From assembly GCA_000091205.1 (NCBI GenBank), contig AP006498.2: DNA of 64,000 nucleotides. One strand, written 5' to 3'. The position numbers and the translations under genes were made by a program. The stretch comes from Cyanidioschyzon merolae (taxonomy: Eukaryota). The notes beneath the pieces are model-generated. The model was not told the origin of the DNA. It did not search any database and saw nothing but the letters and a program-made list of their open reading frames with translations. Below are positions 160 to 62,330 of the stretch, one piece after another (the first letter of the stretch is position 1; each line of letters starts with the position of its first letter).

Positions 160-3100
160 AATTGGAAATTACCACGGGCGCTTTGCTTTTTCTGGTTTAC
201 TGAACTTTTGCACTGACCAGACGGATTAAATCGCTTCTTTGATATTGGTTTCGAAAAAATCCTCTCTCATTCCGAACGATCCCTGTGCATTGCATTTCTT
301 TTTCTTACTCTCGGCCTTATTGGTCGTTTCACACTCTTATCCTACGCCGGATGCCTGCCGTATGCACCAGCCGTAATCTAGTTATCGCTGGTGCTGGTGC
401 ACTTAGGAAATACAGCAGCCTTGACAATCTACTGAGCGTGGCGGTGGAGGCTTGTTTCATGCAACGCGGAAGCATGGCTATTTATATTTCTTGGAGCCTC
501 CAAGCTGTACTATCAGCCTTCCTGCCTGGTAGTCGCGGTGCTTTGTATTGGAAGACCGCCACGCCAAAATTTATATTCAGATGCAGCATACTTGGTCATG
601 ATCCAACAATCAAATGCGTTCGACTGAGATGCTCAGGTGCGGTTCATCCCTCGCCACTGAAAAGTCACACGGAGGACAGGCCGGTTCGTTCTCGCGGCTC
701 GCACACCTCCCGCCTAATCTAACAGTGTGACCATACGCAAAAACTTCTCTCTTCAACGTTTCCGGTTGGTGGCGATAGTACTTGCTATTCCGTTTGTGTA
801 TATTGTTGTACTAGTTGGCATCTTCTATGTCGTGCGCCCTGGTGACGCATCGCGAAATCTGGCCGTCACCTCACACTACGTGCGTCTTGCCGATCAAAAG
901 AAACGTGTTAATGACCTCTTGTGGAGCGACTGCTGTATCGGGGCCACTTGTTTTTGCGATCGAATCGTATCAAATTGTAGTTTTGGCTTCAATAGCGTTT
1001 CAATCTTCAAGTAAATTTATTCAACTGATTTTCGCCTTTCAAAGCAGAAGCGTCCAATGAGTTTTTCTCCCAAATAAAATTGACTCATGTAAATCAAGGG
1101 GGTGGGGGGTACGGGGTGGCAGATGTGCCCGGATGTCAGAACGAAACGAGACATGCTGCCCAGCGAAGAGGGCCAGGAAAAAAGAAGAAGCAACATTTGG
1201 AGGCCTTAGATCGAAGGCTGCCATGGTGACGTCTGTACGACGAGATGGTGGTGGAATCCTATCTTCTCCAACATATCAATGATCCGTACGACTGATTGTT
1301 GCGAGACGCTATCAGAAAGCGTGTCGGTTCGTACGCCAGGTATGTTTGTACCTTCTCTTTAGGACGTTGGCATTTGGAGAGCGAGCTGCATCCGGAGGTA
1401 ACGCACATCGCAGAAGTGATGTTTCCGGAAGAAATTTTCCAAAAGACTTTCATCAACCACCTGATTGTTTTTAATGGGAAAACATCGAGGATAAATGAGC
1501 GAGTGCATGCCTTTCTCAAAAATTACGCCAAGTACCTCGTCATCGGTGCTGTACACAGGGGTGACGTAGATATTTACGAATACAGGGCAAAGAGGTGCCT
1601 CAGGAATGTGAGGAACCGTAGCATCGCAACCCTCGATTGTTTCATGATACGCGTCGTCTTTGCGCTGTACCCGGGCCTATTTCGCGAAGCGATGCTTGCA
1701 ATCATCGATGGTATGAAGAACGATCGCCAGCATGAACAGGAGATCAGATTCGTCGACAAGAGGACATCACGCCCGAGAAGGAATATTGCTTTTGTTATCC
1801 GCGCGACTATTCTAAAACATCGTTCACGCTTGGGGCTTGTCGACCCTAGAGAAAAACTGTCAGATATGATCAAAAAAGACGAAGAAAGATTTTAGTCCCT
1901 CATCCTGCCCTACTTCATTTTTCCGACCGAAAACTCGAACGCAAGGCTGACATGGAGCTGAGTTTGGAAAAATGACCGACGGGAGAACGGACGTTGAAGA
2001 GCTTCTCCAGATGCGCTTCGTTGTCGTCCGGTTACGCGAGTTCAAGTCACATGTTGTGAATATCGACTCTAGAGTCCTTTACGCCTTCATGAAAGAGTTC
2101 TATCCAGTGCTCGATATAAGCAACAAAGGGGCCACCGGCGAAGACCGGGACACCTACTGGAAGAAGCATTTCGATTCCAAGTGTCCCAAACCGGCCAAAA
2201 AAGGTATTCACGGGGACCATCGATAACGATGATGGATACATATGGGTACATTAGTAGCGGTTGTAAGTACTTCGTCCTATCTCGTCTTCGTTGTCGCCGT
2301 TGCCGATGCACGAACAGAAGAAGATGGGCGATGGAACGTATAATCGCCACGAAAACGACTTTGTCGTCGACCTTAACCCTAGGAACACGAATATCATAAC
2401 AATCGCAATACCCGAGTGTGCGGAAGATGGTACTGAATGTAACGTACGTCAGAGAGACATGCATCTTTTGAGGCTCTCGAGAGCGAGATACTATCGAGAA
2501 TCCTGTATAATGAATGCAAAAAAGAAAATTGCAGCATGGAATGAAGGAATGAAAGAGCATATGGAAGCTATGGGCGAGGTGACTAGCCGCGGAGCGGACT
2601 ATAAAGCTTTTCGGAAATTCATGGAAGTTCGCGTCGCTCATTGGGATGCGCTGTGGAAGGAGTATACAAAGCCCCGGTGGGCTCGTCTGCGAATAAATTT
2701 GTATTGCGGGAACCAGCGGGCGTTCGCCAACTTTTTCAATCAATTGGGTGCCTTGAAATAGGATGACAGTCAGAGGCTCGCAGTAGCGTATGGATCAGGG
2801 CGATGGAAGACCCAAAAGGGACTACTCCAGCTCTGTCGACAAGAACATACAATGTGTGTTAACGGCGTTTCGTCACGATACCTGTCGATGAGTTTCGAAC
2901 GTCCTATACACACCATGAACTGGGTTATACACTTCAGAGAGTGGAGGTAGAAAAGGGCCAGCGGAGCCCTGAGGATATAGAAAAGTACGGACCGCTGATG
3001 GAGGAGCAAATGGAAAGGCGAACGAAAGTCCGAGGGCTACTCGCATTGGTGAGTGCAACTTCCAATGGCAAGTTACGTATGGGGTTTGTGAACAGAGACT

Positions 3101-3317
3101 TTAATGCCGCTATCAAGATACGGAGGTGTGCGATGCTGGAGAACAGACCTCCAGAATAGACAAGAATGATCTTTGTTGGACAATATCCCAAAGTCGGATT
3201 ATATGAGAAAAAGTTTGAGCCAGTAGTAGGTGGCCGGTACAAAAAGACGGGGAGGCGTCTGCACGTTAGTTGGAGACGTCTTGTCTAGTGCGGGTTTCTC
3301 GCCACTACTGTACACTG
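160..3317 (+). mobile_element. Copy A of a TnpB/Fanzor-like element. The left boundary is uncertain and may reach the window start; the right end is at the conserved ...GCCACTACTGTACACTG.
   Basis: Nucleotide and peptide homology to copy B (21440..24635), traced by eye from about 160 to 3317 (about 60-75% identity). It contains a decayed Fanzor-like reading frame. Homology to copy B stops exactly after CACTG at 3317. Confidence 0.55.
1296..3288 (+). pseudogene. Decayed TnpB/Fanzor-like nuclease gene, copy A. Frameshifts and stops split it into ORFs 1296..1895, 1972..2226, 2291..2761 and 2941..3159.
   Basis: RuvC-I-like ENDFVVDLNPRNTNIITIAIPE. RuvC-III signature FVNRDFNAAIKI (D-x-N-A-A-x-N-I). 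A shared tail PVVGGRYKKTGRRLHVSW is followed by TAG at 3286..3288. The pieces lie in different frames, so the gene is not intact. Confidence 0.6.
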
Positions 3318-4034
3318 TTGTCGTTTGACTTAGAACGGCGTTGTTGGTGTCAGGGCTTCGATGCATAATATGTTTACGCTTTCGTGTCTTGTAATCTTCC
3401 GTTTTCGTGCTTTCCACTGCAGGAGTGGTAAAATTGTGCAACTGTAATCCACTTCTGCTTCACAGCCGTCTGGTGCCATTCTATATGATGTATCAGTGTC
3501 ACTTTCTTTTCGGTTTTTTTGAGACAATGTATTCCATCACTGATTCTGATATTTTTTCCTCGTATAAATTCCTGAATGCCTTACACCACCGCTTCGAGAG
3601 TCAAGCAACAGAGCAGACCGTTAACATCCACAAATGTGAAAACAGTCTGACGGAACGCCTCGCAGCTTGACAGCCTCCACGACATCTCCAAGCTTCGATG
3701 CATGTGTATCGCGGATCGACCTGTCTCAAGTGACCAACAGGACCTGCTATTTTCAGCCACGGCTCGATGATGCATCACATCTCGTTTCCATTCTATTGTC
3801 AATCCACAAATTTTGCGATCGCGTGGATCCATGGATGCAACCTCACCCATACATCTACAGGGCTCAGGTTCCATTCATGACCAACGTACCTTACAATATG
3901 CTGTTTGAAGCCTTCTTTGTTATAAATAACATGTTTTCATCACCGCTCGTTCATACATTTCAGACAGTAGGCGTAGCAGCTCATGATGGGGCTCACGTCC
4001 TGGTCGACCGTGGACTCTGCATCAGCTTCGCTGC

Positions 4035-21439: not shown

Positions 21440-24400
21440 CCGGCGGCGGCGGCAGCGGGTGCAATTCGTTTTGTTTTCGATGACAGAAGGCGTTTCCATG
21501 GATCAGGGGATCCCAGATTGCCGGATGGACGGGTATTGGCATTCGGGAATGCGTCCAGGATGCTGCAGCCTATCTCCAAGTTCCATTGCTTGTACTTTCT
21601 CTCGGAAATACTGGTTGTTCTGTGGGTTCTATCGTGAACAGAGTGCCTGCGTCGCTGCTCCCGCCGTAGCGTCTATATCGCTGGAGTGGATGCAGCACGG
21701 AGATAGAGCTGTGCTTTGTCGTACCACTGAGGGTATCTGTTCGAGGAACGCTTCACCTGAAACGGTGTCGGGATACATAGTGAGTTTGGGAGCCAGAAAT
21801 CTGTCCAGACAAGCCTAGTGCCTGCGACAGCTCGAATTGATATTCTGGGCGTCCACTGCGACCCGGGCGACGCCCAGATGCAGCGGAACTGCCCCGAGTC
21901 TCAGAGTCAACTGCGTTGCGTACGAGTTGCTCAGATCTCGCTAGAGCACCGGGCACGGAGGAGAGCATGGAGCACGAGCCTGGCAGACTCGCGCGGCTTG
22001 CAGGATCTGCCACCTATACGGTAAACTGTCGACAATATGGAGACATTTTCCCGCTTTTAACGTTTATCTCAGAGGACGAAAGAAATCGTTGTATCGTTGC
22101 TAGTTGGTGAATCGTTTTTGCTCTTTGTTTGCATAGCGCGGTCGATACGCGCACCTCCATATCTGGTAGTCACGAGATGCGCCTTGCATGTGGCAGTTGA
22201 AGGGAAACGCGAGACTGACCATTTTTTGACGTTTTGTTTTACTGTACAAGTCGCATTTGCGTTGAGCGCATAGCAAATTATAGTGTTTCATCTCAGTTGT
22301 GTTTTTACCTCCAAGCAAGTCTATTCAAGTGATTTTTTTGCGGTTTATAACTCAAGCGTTCAATGAGCGTTTTTTTTCAAAAATTAAAAAAAAAAAAGCA
22401 AGTATGGAGAAGGATGGTGAGGATCCTGGAGGCCTGGTATCACCGCTTGGCAGAAAAAAAAGCGAAAAACAGCGCCAAACAAAGAGGAACAGGAGAAGAC
22501 GAAAGAGCAGACGGTGGAGGCGTGACGTCATAAGCTGCGAGAAAGATGACAGTGCGACGAGATGGTAGTGAAAGCCTGCCTCCTTGGTCATATCAAGGAA
22601 CCGTACAGGCAAAAGTTGCTAGAGCCCATCAGAAATCATGTCAATTCGTAGTCCGCGAGCATTACAAAAGCCTTCTTCACGACTGAGGTACTTGGAAAAA
22701 TAGATGCATCGCGACGTTACATACATCGAAGCAGTCGAGGATACGGAAAAAGCTTTGAGCAAGGCCTTCATCCACCACTTCACGATTGGCACGGAGACAA
22801 TGTCGGGGAGCAATGAGCGAGTTCACGTCCTCCGGGAAAATTACGCCAAATATCGCTTCAACGGTACTCGATACAGGTGTGATGCGGATATTTGCACCTA
22901 CGGGGCGATCAAGTACCTCACGAGCCTGAAGAACCAAAGGACCATCAACCTCGAACATTTCATGGTGCGCTCCATCTTTACACTCCACCAGGGGCCTGTC
23001 TGGAAAAGAGAGCTAGGCTATTATAGATGGCATCACGAACGATCCCCATCATGAAGATGAGATCGAATTTGTCGACATGAAGACATCACGCATGAGAAAG
23101 AGTGAGGCTTCTGCGATCCGTACGGCAGCACCGGAGCACTGTTCGGTTCTGGGGCTGGCGAATCCAGCAGAAAACTGATCAAATGTTAAAAAAGATGTAG
23201 AAAGATGTTATCCCCGTATCAAGCGGTATTTCGTGTTCCTAAATCGAGAACTCGACCGTAAGGCCGAAAACAGCTGAATATGGAAAAAATGAAGAGTCGG
23301 AGAGACGCAAGGCTGTCCTGATGGGGAAGCGCTTCAATATCGTCACGTTGTGCAATATCAAGTCACATCTTGTGACAATCGACTCCAGAATCCTTTACGG
23401 CATCATGAAGGAGATCAGTCCATAGTTCGATGTAAGGAAGATATGGTTCACCTGCGAAAACCGAGAGACGCACCGGAAGAGTATCTTCGACTTCAAACGT
23501 CTCAAACGAGGAAGGAAAAGCCATCCATGGGGACGATCGAAAGCGATGGGGTAGCCATGTATGTACACTATCGGCGGTTGGAGGCGGATCGTTCTGTTCT
23601 GTCCTCGGGTTCGCCCTCTGCGAAATATGAACATTAGAAGGAGGTGGATCCCGCGACGCAGAAAGTGCATGAGAACGACTTTGTCTTTGGTGCGAACCCC
23701 GGGGGTACGAATATCATAACGATCGCAGTACCCAAGCGTGCGGAAGATGGTGTTGACGGCGATTTACGTCAGAGAGACATGCGTGTTTCGAGGTTCTCGA
23801 GAGCAATATACTATCGAGAATCCGGTAAAATGAATGCGAGGAAGAAAATTGAGACACGGAATGCAGGAGTGAAAGAGCACCTGGATGCTTTGAGCGAGGT
23901 GACGAGCCGCGGAGCGGACTGGCAAGCTTTTCGGGAGTTCATGGAAGTTCGCGTTGCTCGCTGGGAGGCGCTGTGGGAGGAGTGTACAAAGCCCCGATGG
24001 GCTCGTTTGCGTATGAATTTGTAGTATGGGACACAGCGCGCGTTCGCGAACTTTTTGAATGAGTTGAGAGCCCTGAAGGAGGATGAAAATCAGAGGCTCG
24101 TATTAGCGTACGGAGCAGAGCGATGGACATCGAGAAAAGGATGTATGCCAGCTCCAACGACAACAACGTACAAGGAGTGTGCGCGGCGTTTCATTACGAT
24201 ACATGTAGATGAGTTCCGAACGTCCTATACACACCATGAACTGGGGTGTACACTTCAGAGGGTCGAGATGGAAAAGTGCCAGCGGAGCCCTGAGGATATC
24301 AAAGAGTACGGAGTGCTGACGGAAGAGCAAATGGAAATGAAGGCGAAAGTTCGAGGGTTACTTGCACTAGTGAGTACAACTACCAACGGCAAGAAACGGA

Positions 24401-24635
24401 TGGAGTTTGTGAATCGTGAATTTAATGCTGCTATCAATAAAAGATGTGCGGTGATCGAGAAAAGACCTCCAGAGTTGACACGAAGGAATTTTGTTGGACA
24501 ACCTCTTGAGGTGGGATTATATGAGAAAAAGTTGAAACCAGTAGTAGGTGGCCGGTCCAAAAAGACTGAGAGGCATCTGTACATCAGTTCGAGACGTTTT
24601 ATCTAGTGCGGGCCGTTCGCCTCCCCTGTGCACTG
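21440..24635 (+). mobile_element. Copy B of the TnpB/Fanzor-like element, about 3.2 kb and the most complete copy. The right end is at CACTG, 24631..24635.
   Basis: Collinear homology to copy A across the whole length: a non-coding left part (21440..22400), a basic NLS-like ORF, then N-terminal, middle and RuvC regions. The 29 nt after the stop codon are conserved with copies A, C and D. Confidence 0.6.
22400..24606 (+). pseudogene. Decayed TnpB/Fanzor-like RuvC nuclease gene, copy B. The RuvC half (23644..24606) is in one frame broken by a single in-frame TAG at 24022; there are upstream frameshifts near 22568/22704 and 23054.
   Basis: Basic N-terminus MEKDGEDPGG...GRKKSEKQRQTKRNRRRRKSRRWRR. 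RuvC-I-like [23 protein letters not shown], in which the catalytic Asp is replaced. ...HVDEFRTSYTHHELGC... and the RuvC-III signature EFVNREFNAAINK. The tail KLKPVVGGRSKKTERHLYISSRRFI is followed by TAG at 24604..24606. Confidence 0.65.
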
Positions 24636-24953
24636 CCGGCGGCAGCGTGTCCATCTCACCAGTGTTCCTTCACCGCGCACTGAAAAACAAACAAAAAAGA
24701 GAAAAAAAAGCGCACAGATGGAGAACGCTGGCCTATGGAAACGATTTGTCCATTAATTACCAGACCGCATTCGTTTATTCTGTATGAATTCATACATAAA
24801 TGTACTAAAAGGACAGTGCGCGGCGTGACTGCCGTCGCGCACGCAGCTCTACGTGCAGCGCATTGGCACACAACTGCAGTTCCCCTAGTTGTACGATACG
24901 GCCTGTTGCCGCTGGACCCCGCAGCTTGCACAGCACACTGGTGACACGTCGAA

Positions 24954-26431: not shown

Positions 26432-27904
26432 GATCGCAACGCCTACTGGTTACCGACCCCAGTGCGCACGAACGAAAAGCGGGTCCGTTCAACTCGGCGA
26501 AACACGTTGCTGACCCCGAGGCTCTGTTACTCCAGCTAACTGCTAACGACAGCAGCGGTTACCTACGCTGTCCCCAGGTGCCGAAAACACGACTCTTCTT
26601 GCAGCCTGCCGCTGTATAGCCAGCGTTTGGCATTCCATCTATGCTCTCATCGATGGCAATCGACGGTGGCTGGTGCAGCGTCGGGAACGCGCCTGGTAGT
26701 GCCCGCGCTGCGCTTTCCTCCTGAACGTGTGCGGTTTCGACGCACGACTATCCCGAGACTCGTTTGGTCGTGCGGCAAGTCTCTGCAACCAGAGCGCCTA
26801 GCCATGTGAAGCTTTAAGGATCGCTTTTTGCTATAACCTGGTAGATGTTGCGCGCCGTAGGATGGCCTTCATCGGGAGACTGCTGCCCGGCACAGACAGG
26901 AAGCGCAAATTCATGAACAGCTGCATGAGCCGAATTCCGAGCTCCATTCACCTCGTTTGTACGCTGTACAGTTGGTATATTCAATCGGCACCCGCCTGCT
27001 CCAGATTCACAAAAGTTATCGCGTAGTATACAAGAGACCTCAGTCACTCTGGATACGATTCTGCGTTTTTGTGGTCTCCAGAGCACTCTGTCTTTGTGGA
27101 AACCATTCTACAGTCATTTTAAAACACAATGGAACTCGCTTTTTTTGCGACTATTTGATTATCCTCTCATACCTCCGACGCTTACAACGGCGGTCGTTTC
27201 TTTCCATCTGCTTCCATTGCCAACCTTCAACGGGTGTTGATTGCAGCGGTCAACTCCCAAATGCGCTGCTTTCGCTTGGTTTCAACGCATTTCATGCATA
27301 TGTGAAAGCCAGAATCTACGCTCTTTTTGCAATTTTCATATTCTTTATATACATATTCAGTGCGTCTTCCGCAACGCTGACACATAGCACGGGTCAAGTG
27401 TTTCTATACGATCATCACATTTGCTCTACCGAGGGCTGCTCTGTGCCGCGTCGAGGCTTGCTCCACTGCCGCGCCCTCGAATGGCCATGAAACAGGACAA
27501 TAGAAAAATTGGAGCATGTGTGATTTGAGTGTGCCAAATCCAAGGAAAGGCGAAGGGCGGAGGTTTCCACTTATGAAGCTCATAATGATATCGGTCATTT
27601 TACGAAACCCCCTTCGCGGGCATTGCGACTCATCCTAATTTCGGGAATGTAACGAATTCTAGAGGCAAGGCGTCGAACGGGCCCTTTTGAAACGACAACA
27701 CGGAATCCTATACTCAGGCATGAATCCGTAAGCCGTTATTGCTGCATGTTGAATATCGACGCTGTACATCTCAGTAAACGCTCGGAAAATATCGCAAGAC
27801 AGGAACAGCGCTTACAGTTCAGTGTTTCATTTTAACCTGACGCGAGTGTTGGTCCAGCGGTGTTTTCGGCGCTGAGCCAATGCTGGGCATTTACTGCCAC
27901 TCTG

Positions 27905-29930: not shown

Positions 29931-30789
29931 TACAACACCGTCACTATACTGTTCTATGCAGTACCGATGAACGCAGATAGATTCCCGCGGCGAGTATAGG
30001 CGCCGCCAAGCGCCTGCGACGCAAGCGGCGCTCCCTCGCCGCCGCCCTCTGAATGGAAGCAGCAGGCGCGCGTCGGCGTCTGTCATGCTGGATGCGGCAG
30101 TCGTGCGATATAAAAAGTTACTCAACGCGATCGAGTGTATCCAGTGGCGCAAGGGGCGTCGTCGAATCGTGTCGAACACAACTGCAGCTCTGCCAGAGAG
30201 ACCGATGCACTATCGTGGTGATTCGTCGCACAAAGGATCGAAAAGCGCTTTGTCTGAGCAACAAACCTTCATTCCCATAGAGTACACGAGCCGCTCAGCC
30301 GTCGCCGCGCGAGGATTCCGCCACAATCATCCATCGTATTAAACTGAGACAATACGCACAATTATAGACTTCCGCTGGCGTCTCGGCTACGGCCCTGCGC
30401 ACCGTTTCGTGTGGCGCCTTCGCTGAGCGACCGCCAATGCTGCAGACCCAGACTAGCGTGTTTGCTGAAGGACTAGCGTATCCTGTTCGCACAGGAAAGC
30501 AGGCTGCTTCGGGTGCAGAAGCGACCGGGACAAGCATCGCTTCAACGGGTGTTCATGTAGCTGGCAGTAACGTGTCGCTTAGATTGAATGCTTGCGAGGA
30601 CGCAGGGATGCGGCATTCAACAGCCTCATGGAGTACGCTGTTGTCGTGCAGGCCAAACGCGTCGCACCGTGCAACGAGCATAATGGAACTGGGCTCGGAT
30701 TTCGATCGCTGCTGCATCGGTTCGGCTGCGCTCGGGGAGTTGTTAACGGACTTAGGGAGGCGGGCACGCCTTCGTATGCCACACATCCA

Positions 30790-31195
30790 ATATCGTTATG
30801 ACTTTGAAACCAGGTATCGGTACACCTATGAATTCAGAGCACAAGCTCAATGCAGTTCAGACAGGCGTGCTTCCGATATCATTCATACTTTCGACGCAAG
30901 TATCAGTACACCAGTGGCTTCAATGCACATGCTCAATGCAGTTCAGACAGGCGTGCTTCCGATATCATTCATACTTTCGACGCAAGTATCAGTACACCAG
31001 TGGCTTCAATGCACATGCTCAATGCAGCTCAGACAGGCGTGCTTCCGATATCATTCATACTTTCGACGCAAGTATCGGTACACCAGTGGCTTCAATGCAC
31101 AAGCTCAATGCAGCTCAGACAGGCGTGCTTCCGATATCATTCATACTTTCGACGCAAGTATCGGTACACCAGTGGCTTCAATGCACATGCTGAAC
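30790..31195. repeat. 86-bp tandem minisatellite: about 4 full units plus degenerate partial units at each end.
   Basis: The unit gctcaatgcagttcagacaggcgtgcttccgatatcattcatactttcgacgcaagtatcagtacaccagtggcttcaatgcacat starts at 30845, 30931, 31017 and 31103, an exact 86-bp period. The period is not a multiple of 3. The same peptide appears in three ORF frames (30437..31327, 30798..31193, 30850..31623), so these ORFs are artefacts of the repeat. Confidence 0.9.
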
Positions 31196-31777
31196 GCATC
31201 TCGGGTATGCCAGGGATCCAGGGGGAATCCAGAGTCTTCACTGTTGCTTGCGAACAATGCTTTTATCCGGCTTTTCAGACGATGCCAGCACCCAAGTTCA
31301 GAGCCCAGTGTCAACTACCGCAACTGAAGACTCCGCAAGCACAAGTCCTGCATCCTCCGACGGGTTGCGTTTCTTGTAACGCCCTTGAAGCCTCCGGAGG
31401 TGAGACGTCAGCAGACCTGGCGTCGACGGCGCACAGACCTGCGGATACTCGACAGCGATACGCTCGGCTGCTCAGCAGTTCGGATTTGAGGCGAGCGCCA
31501 ACTGGACTGGATCGTTCTACGCTTCTAGCTTGCGACGAGTCAACGGACATTGTCTACTTAGTCGACACTATACCAAAACGTGAGCTGAACGGCTTTTCGC
31601 TGCCCGCAGAGCTTTGGCGCTGAGGGCACTGACGGTGCGTCGCGTGCAGCGAGCCTACAGCTTGAACGCGGAGGTACTGCAGCTGGCGAACAGAGTCGCC
31701 GGGCCAAGGAAGCTCGCTGGTCGAAACACAGGCCTCAGCTCACGGATTTACTGCTTAGTAGTGGTCTCGTTGGCGCC

Positions 31778-35803: not shown

Positions 35804-35999
35804 TGTCGACGGGAGCACTGCGAATAAACGAGTTCGGGTTTACTTGAAGCAAAGTTTGTTCGGGCGACGAAGACGAGTGCGGCTTCATGCGCTGCAAATG
35901 AAAGCATTCGGGTTCACCAGAAACGCTGGTTTATCCTGTTTCCAGCACCGCCGGCTGCGTGTGCAGGCGCCCCGGCAGCGCCAGCACATGAACGCAGGC

Positions 36000-36155
36000 C
36001 ATGCACGAACCCGTACGGTAGAGAATGAACTGCTTCGGAGACCTCAGCTTCTTGAGTTGTACTGTTCGCCATGGGATACAGGCCGTGCACGAACCCGTAC
36101 GGCAGAGAATGAACTGCTTCGGAGACCTCAGCGTCTTGAGTTGTACTGTTCGCCA
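36000..36155. repeat. Two tandem copies of a 77-78-bp unit, about 200 bp downstream of the kinase gene stop.
   Basis: catgcacgaacccgtacggtagagaatgaactgcttcggagacctcagcttcttgagttgtactgttcgccatgggat is repeated with 3 substitutions. Confidence 0.85.
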
Positions 36156-36733
36156 TGGGATGCGTTGTTTCGTGCAGCTCTCAAGCTTCCAGGGAGCGCG
36201 AACGAGCTGGGTAGCCCCAGCGGCACCTAAGGCACCAGAATATCCAGGTGATTTCGAACGCTTTGGCCAAGTGCCAACCTATACCGAACGTGAAGCCTTG
36301 GGTTGCGTGGGAAATTCTTTGGGTTCCGCTCCAGAGATCGACGATGCGTACCAGGAAGACGCTATGCGCTGAAACGCATTCATATGCACAGCAGGATGGC
36401 ATTCGATTCGCACGGAAACCCGAGGCCGTCGTATCTGGCACCGGGCGATAGATAAAGACCGTAAAGCAACGTTCAAGGAGAGCGTCGATGCACCAGACGA
36501 GTGATAAACGGGATCAACATCAGCAGAGGTGTATGCGCTCCGCCCCAGCAACCTAGCTGGAAGCGAGTACGCTCGGTACGACTCGTCGCAAGAGCGAGGT
36601 ACCCGACGCGGCACCAGAAAGCAGGGAAACGCGCTCTGTCGTCGTAACGCTCCGTCGACATGCACCGACACGCGGGGCACACATCCGATACTGCGACAAT
36701 ACCCTACTGCTCGGAGGTGAGACGGGAATTCGT

Positions 36734-38950: not shown

Positions 38951-40589
38951 CTAGTTTCAGGGACAACTGGAGGAAGCGCTACTTCCCAGCGAACGCGAAA
39001 CCTGGCCCGGGGTTTGCTAAAAGATGATATTTGGCTTCGAGCTCGATATCCAAAAGCGCTTGCCGGGTGTTAGGTTGCCGTCTCGACGAGAGCAGGGGCC
39101 CGTCGTCCAAACTATGATCAAACCGCGAGTGATAAGCAGAAGATAAAGGTATCAGTGAGCTAGATGCTAGTTAAGAGAAGCAGCTCTTTTCTAGCGTTCA
39201 ATACAACTCGTTGTGATCACTATACGGTAAAGCTATTTTGCGGGCTACCGACAGAACACCAGAGACAGCTTCTTCAAAGCGTCCAGCACGCCATGTCGGG
39301 TGGAGTACGAGACACACCTACTGGTGAACTAGATGACGTATATCTGAGGCAGCTGTTCCCTTGCGTTTGTGCTGTGGTTACTGGTCATCTACCGACGGGC
39401 TCTCTAGTGACAACACCCAGTCGCATAGCAATTCGCCACGGCGCTACGCTCAAGGTAATCGTCGATGGATTCAGGTTTGTTGCTCCCCCTGCAGAGGGTA
39501 ATTCGATGCTACTTTGCGGCGGATAGCAGGAGATCGACATCAACAAGTAATTTTCCATATAGATCACAGGCGAACTACCAGTAGGATAGATGCTTCATTG
39601 TGCAGTGCAGTGAAGACTGCAATCCTTCTTCAGGTAAGTAATACTATAGTACTCAGATGCATGAGGGACACTGAAAGAAAGATGTGTACGAGCACTGCGC
39701 CAAAAACCGGTATTCTTAAAGACTGCTTGCTCTCAACGTTATGAAAACGACCCGATGATCATCCGACGAAAAGCAAAAGCGACGATCGTAGCCGCCAAGG
39801 CCTCTCTGTTTCTTAATAGCTTGTTCGCGTTGTCTTGAAAACACTGGTGTACAATCGCAAAAAAAGTCCTAGTTCAAGAAAGGACCTCTTCTACCGAAAT
39901 CGCATCTGCTATAGCTTTTCTGGGACTCAGCAATCGTTATTCAGTACAAGAAGGTCGGCTTGTTTTTCAGTCGACGAGACGTCCTTTGCACGAAACGGTC
40001 TGAACTTGGATGGGTATTCCGAGAGGGGCAGCCCGCTGCATGTGCGATTGAACTCGAGGAGAACGGCTGAATCACCTATTCTAGATGGAGTGGATTCATT
40101 TAGCGGCCTCACATTTGCTCGTAGAGAAGGTCCGGACAGCAGCACCAACCCTTTGTCGAATCACTGAATACTTTTCCCCTGACGTCTGGCGACGGTCTTC
40201 CATTCGAAAACGCGGTATTTCATCGTTCCCCATGCGTTCACGCTTCTGCGGATCCTCTCGGATAGAGCTACTTTTCGATCCTCCGTACGCTGTGTGGTTC
40301 AGTCGCATCGAAGGATTATTTTCTACTGTGAAACCTAATGATCGCTCCACTGGGCGAGTCGCTAGATCCTTCAGCACATGATGACACACCGGTGCACGTG
40401 TCGTGTTTCGTCCGCAAGTCCTTCTCGCTCCATGAAGGCGCTCGCCTATGGGCACAAAGAAGCTCTTTTGCTTCTAAAAATAAAAAATCTACGGGAAATG
40501 TTTGAACATGCGAGTTTAGGATCCAAAAAAGCCATCACCGCCGGGTTCGACAAAAAACCAGAGAGCAAATCCTCTTCTCGCCGACCACG

Positions 40590-40930
40590 CAGCGAAGAAG
40601 AGCAAATGACGAAGAAGAGGAGAGATAGGCGAGGAAACTGTTTGCCTGATGTGGTGATGACGAGTCTGTAATGGAGCATCGGGCACGAGTTCTAGAAATC
40701 CTTGCACTGCTGAGTTCAACCAGCGGCAACATAAGTATGGATTTTGTCAGCCGAGAGTTCAACACCGACATGCATATCACACGGTATGCGGTGCTGAAGA
40801 AGAGACCCAAGTAGCTTACGCAATCAAACTTCGTGGACCAGCCTCTGATGCTTGACATGTGATTCGATAAACTGAGACCGATACCAGGCGGCCGGTCCAA
40901 AGAGGCAGGGAGGCGACTGCGCGAAAGTAG
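40590..40930 (+). pseudogene. Short 3'-terminal fragment (copy E) of the TnpB/Fanzor-like element (RuvC-III region only).
   Basis: It translates to ...EEEQMTKKRR...RVLEILALLSSTSGNISMDFVSREFNTDMHITRYAVLKKRPK.LTQSNFVDQPL...PIPGGRSKEAGRRLRE, collinear with the RGLLALVSTTTNGKKRMEFVNREFNAAINIRRCAVLE...NFVGQPL...PVVGGRSKKTERHL tail of copies A-D. Nucleotide similarity ends at 40925. Confidence 0.55.
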
Positions 40931-42120
40931 ATATATATACCATCCATCGACGTGCAACGTTATTCGTTTTAGAGAGTATACATTCGATACTGGACGCTCG
41001 CGACTGATGATTCGTTCACAAGGTCATGCCGAAAGCTCACAGAACTTGCCGCGTCAAATATTCGATTCCGTTAGAAAGACAACTGATATGCATTTTGTGA
41101 CGATTGACGAAATCGAGCACGCCAGCAGGATATTACCGCTCACGGGATATGCCCACAGAACCTGTGTCTCTTCCGTTTCCGCGGAAAAGAGTCTTGGACT
41201 CCGACATCAGTCATCTCAGCGATCGCTTCCAGCAGGGCATGCGACAGCGCAGCATGCGAAAGGGGGAATCGACGGACTGGAATTTCATGACTTGGCCTCC
41301 AGTCTGGAATTTCCCTCCAGTGCGTGCATTATCATGGACAATATTGCGTCCAACAAATCCTCTGTCAAATGGAACATCGTGCTCTTGCGTGTGCAGCGGA
41401 CAGCGTACTCGCCGAGGGCACCGCCCAGAAGAAGCCCGTGATTATCGGGTAGGCAACGAGCGGGGAAACGGAGGTCGACCTCGAGTGGCGCCCTCTCTAC
41501 CCGTAGACGACAGGTACCGAGCGATGAACCAGGCTTTAACGCGACACAGGGCGCCCTCTTGGTGAAGAGCGTGCGTTGGATATACGGGAACACCTGACTG
41601 CATACAAGTGTCAGCGCTGCGAAGGCCGCTCCGAGGCTTCACAGAAGAAGAAGCTGAAAATTGCAAGCAAAGCGTAGAAGTAACGTTCGCATATGCATGA
41701 AATGCTTCGAGACCAAGCGGAAGCGGGAAAAGCGGTACTTTATCGCTGCCACCAACATCCTTCGACTGCCTGCATCGGAGCTAGATAGACAGGGCAGACC
41801 GGGGTCCATCAACCAGGAGCTACGGGAGTCCCGACAAAAGCCTTCACAGACCAAAGCCGCATATGCCACTGCTGACGACACCGAGAAGGAACCGAAACTT
41901 TAGTTTGTACGCCCGAGTTAGAGGAGTCGCTCCATTTGATTCTGACGCGGCTGTAAAGCCACCTGAGAGAATCAACGAAGAGCAGCACCGTTCCCAAAGA
42001 TTGATCCGATTGGCAACCCGGACGCGAAGTACATACCCCATTCCGCATGAGCTGGGGTTTTGGCTGTCGTTGCAGGCGCTTTTGCGCAGAGCCAGAGGCT
42101 CCATATGCTACGAAGCGGTC

Positions 42121-44949: not shown

Positions 44950-45129
44950 TGTTGGAGTCAGTCCAGCTCTTGATACGAACGTGAAACAAAGTGAACGACT
45001 TGCAAGGAGTGCCTCCTGTTTGAACGCGGATAACAGCGTAACAAATAGTTATGAAGCGCTTTGGATCGTCGCACGGGGTATTGACGCGCAGCCTTTTGTG
45101 ATTTATTGTGCTGGATAGAAAACGTACAT

Positions 45130-45748
45130 TGACCATTCATCGTTGATTCCGTGATTAGATATTGGCATTCGGTGAACGCATCCATCATGGTGCACGCTAC
45201 CTTCAAGTTCCATGACTTGTACTTTTTATCGGATGTACTGGTTATTTCGTACGTTCTATTGTGCACCGAGGCTGCCTTGATGGTCAGCAAAAGTGCCTGT
45301 ACCGATGATTCGAATGCTGCGCAGAGACTGCGAGGCATTGCCATATGACTGAGGACGTCAGCTGGAGGTATCGTTCACCCGACACGGCATCGGGATTCAT
45401 GATCATTCTGGAAGCTGGAAAGCCGTGCAGAAAGGCCTGCTGCCTACTGCCTGCGGCAGCGCGAAGCGGTATGCTCGGAGACGATCGGGTCTCGGGCGAT
45501 GTCTAGATGCATCCTGTTCGCTGCTCTTCTCAGCGTAATCTTCGTTGCAGACGTTCTGCTCAGATCTCTCTTCAGCACCCGACACTATAGATGCCTACAA
45601 AGTACAATCACCGTTGACTCGTCCGTCTCTAGGGCGCTTCCGCTTTGGCGATAAACTTTCGTAAATACGGAGAACGTTTCCCTGTTAAAATGGCTACCGT
45701 AGATTGCCAGAGGGATTCTCTTATCTGGTTGCTCGTTGGTGGTTCGAT
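45130..45748. repeat. Left arm of a near-identical (>99%) inverted repeat of about 616-620 bp.
   Basis: Reverse complement of 46624..47258. Compared windows (45130..45200 vs 47190..47258; 45700..45748 vs 46624..46700) differ by a single base. The ORF pairs 45585..45878(-)/46612..46803(+), 45403..45585(-)/46803..46985(+) and 44958..45344(-)/47044..(+) encode identical peptides. Confidence 0.9.
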
Positions 45749-46623
45749 TCCGTTCTCTTTTGAATTTATTATGTAAGGAAAACGCCCGCTCATCTCCGAG
45801 TTCTACCGCTCTCCATGATAGAATGCTCTGCAGCTGAGACGCTTCTATATGTTGTCGAAAACACGTGGTGTCTCGCATTCATTTACGACAATGCAAGACG
45901 GCAGCAACCGTTGCAGAAATCGCCAAACAAGCATATCTCTCTGCTGGAAGGAATGAGTCCGATTCCTCGTTCGCTGCACGAGTTCAGGCTCAGATCGCAT
46001 CTCACTTGAAAGACAGCACGGGACTGTGACAGCCACTCGTGAAATGCCTGCACAGCAGTGCAGTGTTGTGCCATGATTTTTCTGATAGGCCAGGATGTCC
46101 ATAGGTACTCGTCACAGCGTGGATGTTCTCTTCTGGTTTGCCTGATGCATGAGCCCGACACAAGGATGCACAGACGGAGCGCGCTCGGCCGAAGCAGCGA
46201 ACCTCTGATTGACCCGAAAAGAAGCTAGCAAGACATGCGATTACATGCACACAGTCGCATTTTTGTGCATGTTCTTCGAGGCGCTCAGCGCAAGTCGCGG
46301 GCAGGGAGATGTTCGCACTCTTGAAAGTCGGGCCCGTACATGGTGAGGTTTTTGGTCGTGCCCTGGCGGCCCGCACTTGAAAGGCATCTCTCGGATGGGC
46401 GATTAAGTCTCGCATGAGCGCCGGTGCCGAAACGATCAGGTTTTCGTCTGCGGGTCCCATCGCTAAAGCAAAAAGGAAACTCTCTGGAATTGTATCAATC
46501 TACAATATACTGTTCATTTAAGAATCTATCCAACTTCTGAACACGCCATTGCCGAAACAAATAGGTTCTTCAGCTGGCGAGTGCAGTGCGTAGAAGCGAA
46601 TCCGGTCAACAATGAATGCGGAA

Positions 46624-53073: not shown

Positions 53074-53213
53074 GATCGAGGCGCAGGAGGCCGCACACTG
53101 GGATGCGTAAAACGCTCAATTACATGTGCCTGCGGATAGCGCGCCCGCTCCTGACGAGATCGCGTTCCGGCGGCGGGCGTCGTCGTCGCGCACCGTTGGA
53201 TGCCACACGCCGT

Positions 53214-54075: not shown

Positions 54076-54209
54076 CACCAGGTAGGAACGCCAGCCAGAC
54101 GCCACTCACATCGCTGCGACGCTAGAGCGCCCGTGGGATCTGCAAAGAAAAACCCTGTCGTGGCGCTTGGTATGCGTACTGGGATCAACGCCCACGTAGA
54201 TAAAGCCTG

Positions 54210-59743: not shown

Positions 59744-59960
59744 ACGTAAATCGTCTGTTGCATACTATGCTCAAGATCAGCAAGAAAATAGTGGTTCAAC
59801 GCACAGCGCGTTCGTGCTCCTGCACGCTCTCCAAGTCGAGCGCTCTGAACGAGGCGGCACCTCCGGCTCGCTCGTGATGCGCGTTAACGTTCGAGCGGCG
59901 GTTTCGTGCACGCCCGACACCGCACCATCAACGCCGCTCTAAAGTCGAACGACTTCGGGC

Positions 59961-61100
59961 GTGTACAGTAGTGGCGGCAACCGTGCCCTAGACTTAAAGT
60001 CTCCAACTGAAGTGCAGACGCTTCCTAGGCTTTCTGGACCGGGCACTCACTACTGCTTCCAACTTGTTCTCATATAGTTCGAATTTGAGAGATTGTCCAA
60101 TAAAGTTCATTCTTGTCCGCTCTGGAGGTCTCGTCTCCAGCGCTGCACATCTGCTTATATTGATAGCGGCATTAAAGTCGCGATTCACGAATTCCATGCG
60201 TTTCGTGCCATCATTGGTTGTACTTACCAATGCAAGGAGTCCACGAACTTTCGCCCTCCTTTCCATTTGCTCCTCCGTCAGCGGTCCATACTTTTTTATA
60301 TCTTCAGGGCTCCGCTGTCACTTTTCCATCTCCACTCTCTGAAGTGTACACCCCAGTTCATGCTGTGTATAGGACGTTCGGAACACATCTATCGGTATCG
60401 TGACGAAACGCCGTGCACACTCTTTGTACGTTCTTGTCGTTGGAGCTGGTGTACACCCTTTTTGGGTCTTCCATCGCCCTGCTCCGTACGCGACTACGAG
60501 CGTCTGACTGTCATCCTCCTTCAAGGCGCTCAACTCATTGAAAAAGTTCGCGAACGCCCGCTGTTTCCCACAGTATAGATTCATGCGCAGACGAGCCGGC
60601 CGGGGCTTTGTATATTCTTCCCACAGCGCATCCCAATGCGCAAACCGATCTTCTATGAATTTCCGAAAAGCTGTAAAGCCCGCTCCTCGGCTCGTCACCT
60701 CGCTCATAGCTTCCAGGTGATCTTTCATTCCTGAATTCCACGTACAAATTTTCTTCCTCGCATTCATTATACCGGATCCTCGATAGCATCTTGCTCTCGA
60801 GAACCTCAAAAAGACGCATATCTTTCTGACGTAAGTTACCATCAGTCCCATCTTCCGCACACTTTGGTACAGCGATGGTTATGATATTCGTATTCCCAGG
60901 GTCCACGCCAACGACAAAGTCGTTATCCTGCACCTCCTGCATCGCAGGATCCCCATCATTCTCATCTACATCCTTCGCCGAGCCGTCTACAAGGTTGTAC
61001 TTTTCCACTTCCTGCGTCACAGAATCCGCGTCCTTCTCGTCTATATTCTTCGCCACGGGCGAAGCCGAAGACGGACCAGGAGACGGGCCCAACGGCGCTG
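59961..61100 (-). pseudogene. TnpB/Fanzor-like RuvC fragment, copy C. It is 5'-truncated just upstream of RuvC-I and lies head-to-head with copy D.
   Basis: Minus-strand ORFs 60535..61092, 60318..60860 and 59994..60266: ...[26 protein letters not shown] (RuvC-I with Asp) ... VDVFRTSYTQHELGCTLQRVEMEK ... RGLLALVSTTNDGTKRMEFVNRDFNAAINISRCAALE (RuvC-III). The stop at 59994 is followed 31 nt later by the conserved right end (+ strand gtgtacagtagtggc at 59961..59975). Confidence 0.65.
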
Positions 61101-62050
61101 GAGGCGCAGAAGAACGCGTTTGCCGTTGGCATGGATCCCGGGAACACCCACATCGTTACCATCGCAGCACCCAAGCGTGAGGAAGATGGCTCTGACGGCA
61201 ACTTACGTCAGAAAGACATAAGTCTGTTGAAGCTCTCATGAGCGAGATATTACCGAGAATCCGGTATAATGAATGCAAGGAATAAAAGTGAGACATCGAA
61301 TTCAGGAGTGAAGGGAATTTGGAAGCGATCAGCCGGGTGACGAGCCGCGGAGCCGACATGGAAGCGTTTCGAGAGGCCATGAGCATTCACGCAGCTCATG
61401 ACGAAAGCCTTTGGAAAGAATGCACAAAGTTCAGGTGGGCTCGTCTGCGTATGAACCTGTACTGTTGGAAACAGCGAGCATACGCCAGCTTTTTCAATCA
61501 GTTGAGCGCCCTCAAGGAGGACATGAGCCAAAGGCTCGTAGTAGCATACGGGGCAGGTCGATGGATGCCCCAAAAAGGGTGTACACCAGCTCCAACGACA
61601 AGAACGTACAAGGAGTGCGCACATGGTTATGTCGAAATACCTTTAGATGAGTTTCGAACATCTTCTACACACCACGAGCTGTGTTGTACACTTCAGAGGG
61701 TCGCGATGGAGAAAAGCCAGCGGCTCGCTGACGGAAATGCAAATGGCAAGGAGGGCGAAACTTCGAGGACTACTCGCATTGGTTACTACAACTACTGATG
61801 GCAAGAAACGAATAGAGTTCGTGAATTGAGACTTTAACGCCGCCATCAGTGTAAGGAGGTGTGCAGTACTGGAAAGAAGACCCCCGGAGTTGGCGAGAGC
61901 CAACTTTGCGAGGCAACCTCCCAAAATGGAGTGATACCAGAAGAAGTTGAAACCAGTAGTAGGTGGCCAGTTGCTGAACGCCAGCACAGTCGTCTGCACA
62001 TCGATGGGTAGACATTCGGTCTACGGCGGACGGTGTGAGAAGCGCCACTC
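61100..62050 (+). pseudogene. TnpB/Fanzor-like RuvC fragment, copy D, on the plus strand and heavily decayed. It abuts copy C head-to-head.
   Basis: NAFAVGMDPGNTHIVTIAAPKREEDGSDGNLRQKD..., then ORF 61319..61798 (RWARLRMNLYCWKQRAYASFFNQLSALKED...DEFRTSSTHHELCCTLQRV), then RGLLALVTTTTDGKKRIEFVN.DFNAAISV ... KLKPVVGG. It ends with gccactcttgtacactg at 62034..62050, which matches the family right end. Confidence 0.6.
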
Positions 62051-62330
62051 TTGTACACTGGCTTTCCAGCGTTTCTCTTTTGCAAGGCGTTTGGTGGTGT
62101 TTCCAGAGACGAATTGTTTATCAAAAACGTCTTCTGTCGATCTTCGAAACCAACGTGCTGCTTCCTCTGTGCGGCACGGGGCGTACGCTATGCGCTTTTC
62201 TGCTGATTGACAGCGGAAGCGACAAGTCCGGTTACTGCCTTGAAGACTTAGACGCTTTGGAGAGACCATCATATCGATGGTTTCAGTTTTCTGACCTCCT
62301 CCTAACCACCACGCTCGGATCTCTGTTGCA

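What the first reader, a model, noticed from the sequence alone, without database searches (positions are those of the whole stretch)
3230..3330. Conserved 29-31-nt non-coding tail after the stop codon shared by four element copies: a candidate right-end / guide-RNA scaffold boundary
In copies A, B, C and D the nuclease ORF ends at the same position (...RRLV*, ...RRFI*, ...SWRL*). It is followed by a conserved block ending GCCACTACTGTACACTG (A 3300..3317), CCTCCCCTGTGCACTG (B ..24635), GCCACTACTGTACAC (C, minus strand, + coordinates 59961..59975) and GCCACTCTTGTACACTG (D ..62050). Sequence identity stops abruptly immediately afterwards, and each flank is unique.

In TnpB/Fanzor systems the omega/fRNA overlaps the 3' end of the ORF. 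It terminates at the transposon right end, and the adjacent host DNA supplies the guide. The sharp, shared boundary here is consistent with such a right end.

The last 100 nt of the ORF plus this tail are the most conserved DNA of the family. A/B/C share ggaggcgtctgcac..agttggagac.
Basis: seen in the sequence. Interest (0 to 1): 0.7.

Follow-up and report, generated by a model that had tools for sequence, protein, structure and literature searches.

The report
Decayed Fanzor right-end guide-RNA tail
The conserved tail after the stop codon is the start of the non-coding right end of a Fanzor (eukaryotic TnpB-like nuclease) element, but the end lies about 32 bases further on, after a hairpin, and all copies in this window are dead relics, so this is an ordinary new member of a known kind.

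Summary
The conserved motif is real: GCCACTACTGTACAC(TG) occurs at 3301-3317 (copy A), 59961-59975 (C, minus strand) and 62044-62060 (D), with a diverged version ending at 24635 (B). The claimed abrupt boundary at CACTG is wrong.

In A, C and D, and in about 55 non-redundant related copies from Yellowstone hot-spring metagenomes, conservation runs 32-41 nt further. It ends at ...GGTG (A 3349, C 59923, D about 62096-62099). CAC(T/C)G is the 5' foot of a terminal hairpin and GGTG is its 3' foot.

The hairpin persists with at least three different stem sequences. It is rich in G·U pairs and much more stable on the sense strand.

A structure model of an intact relative matches solved Fanzor1 structures. 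More distant intact relatives sit behind a Tc1/mariner-type transposase inside short inverted repeats.

A conserved tail of about 60-65 nt after the stop, ending in a stem-loop next to unique flank, matches published Fanzor1 guide-RNA layouts. Any guide would therefore start after GGTG (A 3350 onward), not at 3318.

All four window copies are pseudogenes with decayed hairpins. Expression is untested. This is a new member of a known kind.

The parts
829..3349 (+). Copy A, core Fanzor element, a pseudogene running from left end to right end.
   Evidence: A and B are homologous over 1158-3317. The left-end block matches the family left-end consensus in the alignment. Copy A was not itself detected by the left-end BLAST, so its start near 829 was placed by eye on that alignment. 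The reading frame is broken by stops and frameshifts, and RuvC-I is DLNPR instead of DPG. The right end was set by the covariance-model hit at 3269-3351.
3286..3288 (+). Stop codon TAG of copy A.
   Evidence: At the homologous position, 38 of 55 family copies have TAG or TAA.
3289..3303 (+). Stem-loop P2. The family consensus is GGCG-N7-CGCC; copy A reads TGCGGGTTTCTCGCC.
   Evidence: The four basal pairs are almost invariant, and apical pairs 5-6 change among GG/CT, AG/CT and CG/CG. Distant relatives have a different stem (AAGGG/CCCTT) at the same place, just before ACTGTA.
3304..3312 (+). Highly conserved single-stranded linker ACTACTGTA.
   Evidence: These columns are about 90% or more identical across the family. 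The ACTGTA motif is also present in the tails of relatives with about 35-40% protein identity.
3313..3349 (+). Terminal hairpin P3 of copy A, running from CACTG to GGTG. It is decayed.
   Evidence: The fold has a z-score of -0.35 in A, against -2.3 to -6.9 in well-preserved copies. Family conservation ends after GGTG.
3350..3369 (+). Unique right flank of copy A. This would be the guide if the tail is a guide-RNA scaffold.
   Evidence: Flanks diverge immediately after GGTG among independent copies. The guide role is inferred by analogy only.
22133..24666 (+). Copy B, core Fanzor element, a pseudogene. The stop is at 24604-24606, CACTG is at 24631-24635, and the distal tail is decayed.
   Evidence: The left-end BLAST hit is at 22137-22288. 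The covariance-model hit is at 24587-24666 with 30 bits. The protein carries D-to-N and D-to-E catalytic changes and an in-frame stop. No hairpin folds here (z +1.2).
59923..60982 (-). Copy C, 5'-truncated pseudogene. The motif is at 59961-59975 and hairpin P3 at 59923-59963.
   Evidence: The covariance-model hit at 59921-60007 scores 79.5 bits.
61075..62099 (+). Copy D, 5'-truncated pseudogene lying head-to-head with C. The motif is at 62044-62060 and a type-2-like decayed hairpin runs to about 62096-62099.
   Evidence: The covariance model did not detect it at E<=0.01.
39550..40919 (+). Copy E. A decayed Tc1/mariner-type (DDE_3) transposase remnant at 39550-40372 is followed by a Fanzor C-terminal fragment at 40662-40919.
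   Evidence: tblastn hits. The gene order is the same as in intact distant relatives.
21465..22127 (+). The ~690-bp 'module' repeat abutting the left end of copy B. It is not part of the core element.
   Evidence: The same repeat forms the arms of the 45086-45756 / 46632-47302 inverted repeat.

Best explanation
**What it is.** The block at 3289-3317 is the proximal half of the non-coding right end of a 2.5-kb Fanzor1-family element. That element is a eukaryotic TnpB-like, RuvC-type nuclease gene plus its right-end tail.

**Layout of the full tail in the family.**
1. Stop codon.
2. A short stem-loop, GGCG-N7-CGCC.
3. An almost invariant single-stranded ACUACUGUA.
4. A 37-45-nt terminal hairpin whose 5' foot is CAC(U/C)G and whose 3' foot is GGUG.
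5. Unique host DNA.

**Most likely function (inferred).** The tail, probably together with the last ~45-130 nt of the ORF, is transcribed in the sense direction as the scaffold of the Fanzor guide RNA (omega/reRNA). The terminal hairpin would be the guide-adjacent stem-loop. The 14-20 nt of flank after GGUG would supply the guide that directs DNA cleavage at sites matching that flank.

**Shown.** Fanzor fold of the protein family; position of the conservation boundary; persistence of the hairpin with different stem sequences; sense-strand bias.

**Inferred by analogy.** Transcription, protein binding and guide use.

**State of the window copies.** A to D are pseudogenes with mutated catalytic residues and decayed hairpins. 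Here the feature is a relic.
For: **Protein**
- 77 homologues were found.
- The model of an intact relative has pLDDT 79.
- The top solved-structure matches are SpuFz, PpFz and GtFz Fanzor1 at E 1e-17 to 7e-16 and TM 0.5-0.7. Cas12f comes next at 2e-4.
- The DPG, DEFRTS and NRDFNAAIN motifs are present in the family.

**Boundary**
- In 55 non-redundant right ends, conservation persists to ...GGTG and flanks then diverge.

**Structure**
- The hairpin occurs as three or more sequence variants at the same place:
  - CGTCGTTCGA-CTT-TCGAACGGCG
  - AACGTTTTTC-TTTT-GAAAGACGTT
  - CCGGCGAGCACGCGC-TCGT-GCGCGTGCTCGCCGG
- Fold z-scores reach -6.9 in well-preserved copies.
- On a model-fitted alignment of 60 distinct copies, 19 pairs show changes on both sides. 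Shuffles give 10.7+/-1.8 (0 of 500 reach 19). The covariation score is 0.158, against 0.047-0.078 for slid partners.
- The sense strand is far more stable than the antisense strand: mean -17.5 against -12.2 kcal/mol, 51 of 58 copies, Wilcoxon p = 3e-9, with about 3 G·U pairs per stem.
- The hairpin motif occurs only at right ends and only in the sense orientation.

**Other**
- Codon periodicity of conservation is lost in the last ~130 nt of the ORF.
- A solitary tail without an ORF starts 47 nt before the stop position.
- Published Fanzor1 layouts agree. SpuFz1 has a 75-nt scaffold between the stop and the right end plus a 14-15-nt guide (PMC10432273). Fanzor1 guide RNAs have a three-stem shape with a conserved stem-loop flanking the guide (10.1101/2023.08.09.552727).
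Against: - No expression or binding data exist.
- Within the commonest hairpin type there is no significant covariation: 16 sequences, 3 compensatory cells, and shuffles do as well.
- The wider covariation count comes from an alignment fitted to the structure.
- RNAalifold on a plain MAFFT alignment found almost nothing (-1.2 kcal/mol).
- The fold of the part upstream of the stop is not consistent between copies.
- No Rfam family matches.
- No TAM, target-site duplication or terminal inverted repeat could be defined for this subfamily.
- A sense-strand ssDNA hairpin would give the same strand bias.
- The window copies fold no better than shuffled sequence.
Confidence: 0.62

Rival explanations
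1. The terminal hairpin is a DNA-level transposon end signal. It would be a single-strand hairpin recognised by a transposase, as at Helitron 3' ends or IS200/IS605 ends, or a transposase-binding site. Its conservation would then have nothing to do with a guide RNA.
For: - The right end is precise and hairpin-bearing while the left flanks are heterogeneous.
- The left end also carries a small hairpin with a compensatory variant: GCGCT/AGCGC versus GCGCG/CGCGC.
- No terminal inverted repeats were found.
- Hairpins at ends are general for HUH/Rep transposons (bioRxiv 10.1101/2022.12.15.520654).
- Strand bias would also fit a top-strand ssDNA hairpin.
Against: - The termini are not TC...CTRR; the end is GGTG.
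- The ORFs listed near the copies examined (B and A flanks, L075 downstream) look like host genes or short unassigned frames, and no Rep/helicase or Y1 search was run.
- Intact distant relatives are carried by Tc1/mariner-type DDE elements, not HUH elements.
- The stems hold 3-5 G·T positions, which weaken a DNA hairpin more than an RNA one.
- The two roles are not mutually exclusive. In insect-virus Fanzor1 the inverted repeat is part of the guide-adjacent stem (10.1101/2023.08.09.552727).
Confidence: 0.15
2. The tail is a 3'-UTR element of the Fanzor mRNA, acting in stability, 3'-end formation or translation control, rather than a separate guide RNA.
For: - It lies directly after the stop codon.
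- The structure is specific to the sense strand.
- Stem-loop P2 with a U-rich loop followed by AC superficially recalls a histone-type 3' stem-loop. This rests on reading the sequence only.
Against: - No Rfam match, including the histone stem-loop, at gathering or E<=1 thresholds.
- Conservation stops exactly where independent genomic flanks begin. That marks the end of a mobile unit rather than an mRNA signal.
- A solitary tail exists without any ORF.
- Known Fanzor1 systems place the guide-RNA scaffold exactly here (PMC10432273).
Confidence: 0.1
3. The shared block is only the edge of segmental duplications or a coding C-terminal extension, not an element terminus or an RNA.
For:
- Two predicted proteins, P0013 and P0016, read through the stop into the tail.
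Against: - About 55 copies share the same boundary after GGTG, and the copies compared directly have unrelated right flanks.
- Core units have a uniform length, with 2.4-2.8 kb from left end to right end.
- 38 of 55 copies keep the stop.
- The tail shows no codon periodicity (0.71/0.73/0.74) and has indels that are not multiples of three.
Confidence: 0.04

Closest known systems
Fanzor1 with its omega/reRNA, for example Spizellomyces punctatus SpuFz1 (PDB 8GKH; Saito et al. 2023, PMC10432273).
   Same: - Single nuclease ORF of about 600-700 aa with an N-terminal basic stretch.
- The protein fold matches solved Fanzor1 structures.
- The element is about 2.1-2.5 kb and present in many full or partial copies.
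[quoted passage not shown]
   Different: - SpuFz1 elements have clear left and right inverted repeats and a CA/TAM motif. This subfamily shows no detectable inverted repeats, target duplication or TAM.
- Its left end often abuts unrelated ~600-700-bp repeats.
- The RNA has not been observed.
Insect-virus Fanzor1 guide RNAs (Yoon et al. 2023, bioRxiv 10.1101/2023.08.09.552727).
   Same: - Scaffold of about 120 nt made of several stem-loops.
- A conserved stem-loop directly flanks the ~20-nt guide.
- The element terminus forms part of that stem-loop.
   Different: - There the stem includes a short terminal inverted repeat and a fixed TTAN target duplication. Here the hairpin foot is CAC(C/T)G...GGTG, with no matching left-end repeat.
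- Only the terminal hairpin, and weakly P2, are supported here. The first stem is not.
Fanzor1 carried by Tc1/mariner-type DNA transposons. This association is recalled from Bao and Jurka 2013 and was not re-read here.
   Same: - Relatives with 35-40% protein identity (L083-L089) have a DDE_3 transposase just upstream of the Fanzor gene; about 30-bp inverted repeats were found in L084-L087.
- Window copy E keeps the order transposase remnant then Fanzor fragment.
   Different: - The abundant copies, A-D here and most metagenome loci examined, lack the transposase and the inverted repeats.
- They have a 60-65-nt tail instead of 183 nt.
TnpB omega RNA of IS200/IS605 and IS607.
   Same: - The guide-RNA scaffold overlaps the 3' end of the nuclease gene.
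- It stops at the element's right end, and the guide comes from the flank.
   Different: - The host here is a eukaryote.
- Sequence-level similarity is only marginal: PF07282 at E=0.019 in 2 of 16 proteins.
- No TnpA is present.
- No pseudoknot has been identified.

Membership tests
Fanzor1 (protein) | TnpB/Cas12-like fold with a RuvC nuclease domain that resembles solved Fanzor1 structures more than Cas12f or TnpB. | tested here: met
   The model of intact relative P0047 has pLDDT 79. Foldseek against the PDB puts SpuFz, PpFz and GtFz on top at E 1e-17 to 7e-16 and TM 0.5-0.7. Cas12f follows at 2e-4.
Fanzor1 (protein) | Catalytic RuvC motifs: DPG in RuvC-I, E in DEFRTS, D in NRDxNAA. | tested here: met
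   The motifs are present in the family alignment. In the window copies they are partly destroyed: A has DLNPR, B has ANPG and NREF, C has IDVF, and D has a stop in N*DF.
Fanzor1 (protein) | Detectable by sequence profiles for TnpB/OrfB. | tested here: inconclusive
   Pfam gave only PF07282 at E=0.019 in 2 of 16 members. The profile search against PDB sequences found nothing. The precomputed label is DUF8286, and weak.
Fanzor omega/reRNA | Conserved non-coding sequence from the 3' end of the ORF to the element's right end, followed by unrelated flank. | tested here: met
   In 55 non-redundant ends, conservation runs to ...GGTG and then falls to about 0.3.
Fanzor omega/reRNA | Conserved secondary structure with a stem-loop flanking the guide. 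| tested here: met
   The terminal hairpin is kept in three or more sequence variants. It shows sense-strand bias and compensatory changes above controls on a fitted alignment. Within one variant there is no significant covariation. The upstream stems are unsupported.
Fanzor omega/reRNA | Transcription extending 14-20 nt into the flank, and binding by the nuclease. | not testable with these tools
   No RNA data are available.
Fanzor omega/reRNA | A TAM next to the left end that matches the cleavage requirement. | tested here: inconclusive
   The left flanks of 20 distinct copies show no common motif, and many are other repeats.
Tc1/mariner-type element | DDE transposase, terminal inverted repeats and a TA target duplication. 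| tested here: not met
   This is met only in distant relatives and as a transposase remnant in copy E. Copies A-D and the abundant subfamily have no transposase and no significant left/right inverted similarity. Their right flanks do not begin with TA.
Helitron | 5'-TC and CTRR-3' termini, a hairpin 10-12 nt before the 3' end, and a Rep/helicase. | tested here: not met
   The right end is GGTG and the left end is G(C/A)ATCGCGC. The hairpin reaches the terminus. No dedicated Rep/helicase search was run; nothing of that kind was noticed among the ORFs listed near the copies.
IS200/IS605-like (HUH) element | Y1 transposase and subterminal hairpins at both ends with defined cleavage tetranucleotides. 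| tested here: inconclusive
   Hairpins exist at both ends. No Y1 transposase is evident, although no dedicated search was run, and the relatives use a DDE transposase. Cleavage sites cannot be tested.

The most novel reading that the evidence does not exclude
The abundant Fanzor-only units have no transposase, no inverted repeats and no target duplication. They have a precise hairpin-capped right end, unique right flanks, and left ends that repeatedly abut unrelated ~600-700-bp repeats in either orientation. They may have multiplied by a route other than the Tc1/mariner cut-and-paste of their relatives. One possibility is a hairpin-dependent single-strand or one-ended mechanism. Another is copying that depends on the Fanzor nuclease and its own guide RNA.
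Probability: 0.1. Interest if true: 0.75.

Novelty: new member of a known kind. Interest (0 to 1): 0.3.

Why it matters
Fanzor nucleases and their right-end guide RNAs have been known since 2023. This adds one more family, from a eukaryote found in Yellowstone hot-spring metagenomes, whose proteins public databases label only as a weak DUF8286 match.

Practical value:
- It corrects the right-end boundary, so a guide would start after GGTG.
- It gives a candidate scaffold that could be tested on intact relatives from a hot-spring, possibly thermotolerant, host.
- It links transposase-less copies to Tc1/mariner-borne relatives.

For this window the feature is a set of dead relics with no expected activity.

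Tried and rejected
- **Pfam and PDB sequence searches** with window fragments, intact relatives and a 16-sequence profile. Nothing useful came back. Fold comparison was needed.
- **Rfam** at gathering threshold on the window and at E<=1 on two good loci. No relevant family.
- **RNAalifold on a plain MAFFT alignment of 36 tails.** Nearly no structure (-1.2 kcal/mol), because the hairpin variants are misaligned.
- **Explicit structure on 16 type-1 tails.** No significant covariation. A three-stem model including a stem around the stop codon is therefore not claimed.
- **Whole-tail folds.** The part upstream of the stop folds differently in each copy.
- **Inverted-repeat hypothesis.** The left end of the upstream ~690-bp repeat was compared with the reverse complement of the right end. 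Scores fell within the shuffle range, so this was rejected.
- **Upstream repeat as a transposase remnant.** No tblastn hit, so this was rejected.
- **Large composite element bounded by two inverted copies of that repeat in L075.** The interval holds host genes, ATP synthase beta and a Nop10-like gene, so this was rejected.
- **Target-site duplication or TAM** in the flanks of 20 distinct copies. None seen.
- **Short left-end/right-end 'ghost' elements.** None in the sample.
- **Internal site GTGTACACTATCGGCGG** resembling the inverted right-end motif. It is coding sequence and contains a palindromic core, so it was judged to be chance.
- **Organism identity.** Not established. The look-up of a window host protein failed. 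Only the metagenome source could be traced.

Full report
**The observation**

GCCACTACTGTACACTG is at 3301-3317. With up to three mismatches it recurs at 59959-59975 (minus strand) and 62044-62060, against 0.09 matches expected by chance. A diverged version in copy B ends at 24635.

Self-comparison of the window defines the copies:
- Two long copies: A, homologous to B over 1158-3317, and B.
- Two 5'-truncated copies lying head-to-head: C at 59923-60982 (minus) and D at 61075-62099 (plus).
- A short fifth fragment, E, at 40662-40919.

All are pseudogenes. Six-frame translation shows stops and frameshifts in every copy, and several catalytic residues are mutated. A and B end at a homologous TAG. 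C has a premature TAA two codons earlier. D has TAC and a frameshift.

**The claimed boundary is wrong**

The A-C alignment continues to 3349/59923. A, C and D align through GTCGTT...GGCGTT...GGTG.

To judge the boundary with independent insertions I collected relatives. A protein search gave 77 homologues. A scan of public metagenome contigs reported 476 related stretches, of which 80 loci were fetched. Some of these are the window's own regions: L006 is the C/D region, and L072/L079 are B.

One project, Ga0078972, is a Yellowstone hot-spring metagenome according to PMC8986864. The host genes in the window are eukaryotic: a kinase with ankyrin repeats and a tyrosine phosphatase.

In 55 non-redundant right ends the consensus is:

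TAG-GGCG(N7)CGCC-ACTACTGTA-CACCGNNGGCGTCGTTCGACTTTCGAACGGCGTTGNTGGTG

Unrelated flank follows. Column identity stays high until GGTG and then falls to background.

The claim that the last 100 nt of the ORF plus the tail are the most conserved DNA also fails. Identity there is 0.72-0.81, against 0.80-0.86 for most of the ORF. What does change is the codon pattern. The excess conservation of codon positions 1 and 2 over position 3 disappears in the last ~130 nt.

**What the protein is**

Sequence profiles are almost blind to it, and the only precomputed label is a weak DUF8286. An AlphaFold model of an intact relative has pLDDT 79. It matches solved Fanzor1 structures (SpuFz, PpFz, GtFz) at E 1e-17 to 7e-16 with TM 0.5-0.7, far ahead of Cas12f at 2e-4.

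The family keeps the DPG, DEFRTS and NRDFNAAIN motifs.

More distant intact relatives, at about 35-40% identity, lie immediately downstream of a DDE_3 (Tc1/mariner-type) transposase, and four of them (L084-L087) sit inside about 30-bp inverted repeats. Window copy E keeps the same order: a transposase remnant at 39550-40372, then a Fanzor fragment.

**Structure of the tail**

CAC(T/C)G and GGTG are the two feet of a terminal hairpin. In well-preserved copies it is a 17-19-bp stem. For example, L029 folds at -28.7 kcal/mol with z = -6.9.

The hairpin occurs with at least three unrelated stem sequences at the same position, with z-scores from -2.3 to -6.9. The window's own copies have decayed: A z = -0.35, B +1.2, C -0.8, D +0.3.

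The hairpin contains about three G·U pairs on average. It is much more stable on the sense strand than on the antisense strand: mean -17.5 against -12.2 kcal/mol, 51 of 58 copies, p = 3e-9. It is found only at right ends and only in the sense orientation.

Covariation evidence is mixed:
- Within the commonest variant there is none.
- RNAalifold on a plain alignment fails.
- On a covariance-model alignment of 60 distinct copies, 19 pairs carry changes on both sides, against 10.7+/-1.8 in shuffles (0 of 500). The covariation score of 0.158 exceeds all slid controls at 0.047-0.078. That alignment was fitted to the structure, which favours it.

The short stem-loop after the stop, GGCG...CGCC, has an invariant base and a variable apex. 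In distant relatives it is replaced by a different stem (AAGGG/CCCTT) in the same position, just before a shared ACTGTA motif. A stem around the stop codon and folds further upstream are not supported.

The tail is non-coding:
- 38 of 55 copies keep the stop.
- There is no codon periodicity.
- There are indels that are not multiples of three.

**Interpretation**

The layout is a conserved non-coding tail of about 60-65 nt after the stop, ending in a stem-loop that abuts unique flank. The last part of the ORF appears to be under nucleotide-level constraint, and a solitary tail begins 47 nt before the stop position.

This is what published Fanzor1 systems show. [quoted passage not shown] Insect-virus Fanzor1 guide RNAs have several stems, and the stem-loop flanking the guide is conserved (bioRxiv 10.1101/2023.08.09.552727).

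I therefore favour the guide-RNA scaffold reading, with any guide starting after GGTG (A 3350 onward). Transcription, binding and guide use are inferred, not shown.

The main rival is a DNA-level end signal. It is supported by the absence of inverted repeats, a small hairpin at the left end with a compensatory variant, and heterogeneous left flanks. It is weakened by the G·T-rich stems, the non-Helitron termini and the DDE-type relatives. The two roles could coexist.

**Element anatomy beyond the finding**

The core unit runs from G(C/A)ATCGCGCTCGGTGAGCGC... to ...GGTG. The distance from left end to right end is uniform at 2.4-2.8 kb. This places A at about 829-3349 and B at 22133-24666.

No target duplication, TAM or inverted repeat was found.

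The left end often abuts a ~690-bp repeat in either orientation, or another ~580-bp repeat. The first of these also forms the 99%-identical inverted repeat at 45086-45756 / 46632-47302. Its nature is unknown.

**Verdict**

This is a new member of a known kind (Fanzor1 with a right-end guide-RNA region), present in this window only as decayed copies. Interest is modest.

Noticed in passing
window 45086-45756 and 46632-47302; also 21465-22127 and about 200-815: A 671-nt inverted repeat has 99% identical arms separated by 875 nt. Each arm is a ~690-bp repeat that also lies directly upstream of Fanzor copy B and, decayed, of copy A. In related loci it abuts the Fanzor left end in either orientation or stands alone. 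It is not transposase-like and has no inverted-repeat relation to the Fanzor right end. Its nature is unknown.
   Followed up: partly
window 39550-40919: A decayed DDE_3 (Tc1/mariner-type) transposase remnant at 39550-40372 is followed by a Fanzor C-terminal fragment at 40662-40919. The gene order is the same as in intact distant relatives (L083-L089).
   Followed up: partly
window 59923-62099: Copies C and D are truncated at nearly the same internal position and lie head-to-head about 90 nt apart, forming a palindromic arrangement. The same arrangement is seen in metagenome loci L006 and L058.
   Followed up: no
L041 about 1225-1340; L062 about 915-1031: A solitary right-end tail without a Fanzor ORF begins at GGAAGCGTCTGCAC, 47 nt before the stop position. 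It is preceded by an unrelated hairpin. The two loci are paralogous, so this is one old event.
   Followed up: partly
L085 4193-4376; L088 3616-3810: Distant relatives have a 183-nt tail ending in a ~30-bp inverted repeat. It shares with this family a stem-loop followed by ACTGTA and then GGCGTCGGTG. This suggests a deeper conserved core of the putative guide RNA.
   Followed up: partly
window 53117-54192; 30786-31215; 35995-36161: Tandem repeats with units of 97 nt (about 11 copies), 86 nt (about 5 copies) and 84 nt (2 copies).
   Followed up: no
window about 2229-2244, and the homologous site in most loci: An internal coding site, GTGTACACTATCGGCGG (encoding ..CVHYRRL..), resembles the reverse complement of the right-end motif CGCCACTACTGTACAC. 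It contains the palindrome GTGTACAC and was judged to be chance.
   Followed up: partly
window 27232-27383 and 41608-41760: A ~150-nt inverted repeat at 71% identity, unrelated to the Fanzor copies.
   Followed up: no
window 24682-24710: An A-rich tract (AAAAACAAACAAAAAAGAGAAAAAAAAG) lies shortly after the decayed tail of copy B. It is not seen at other copies.
   Followed up: no
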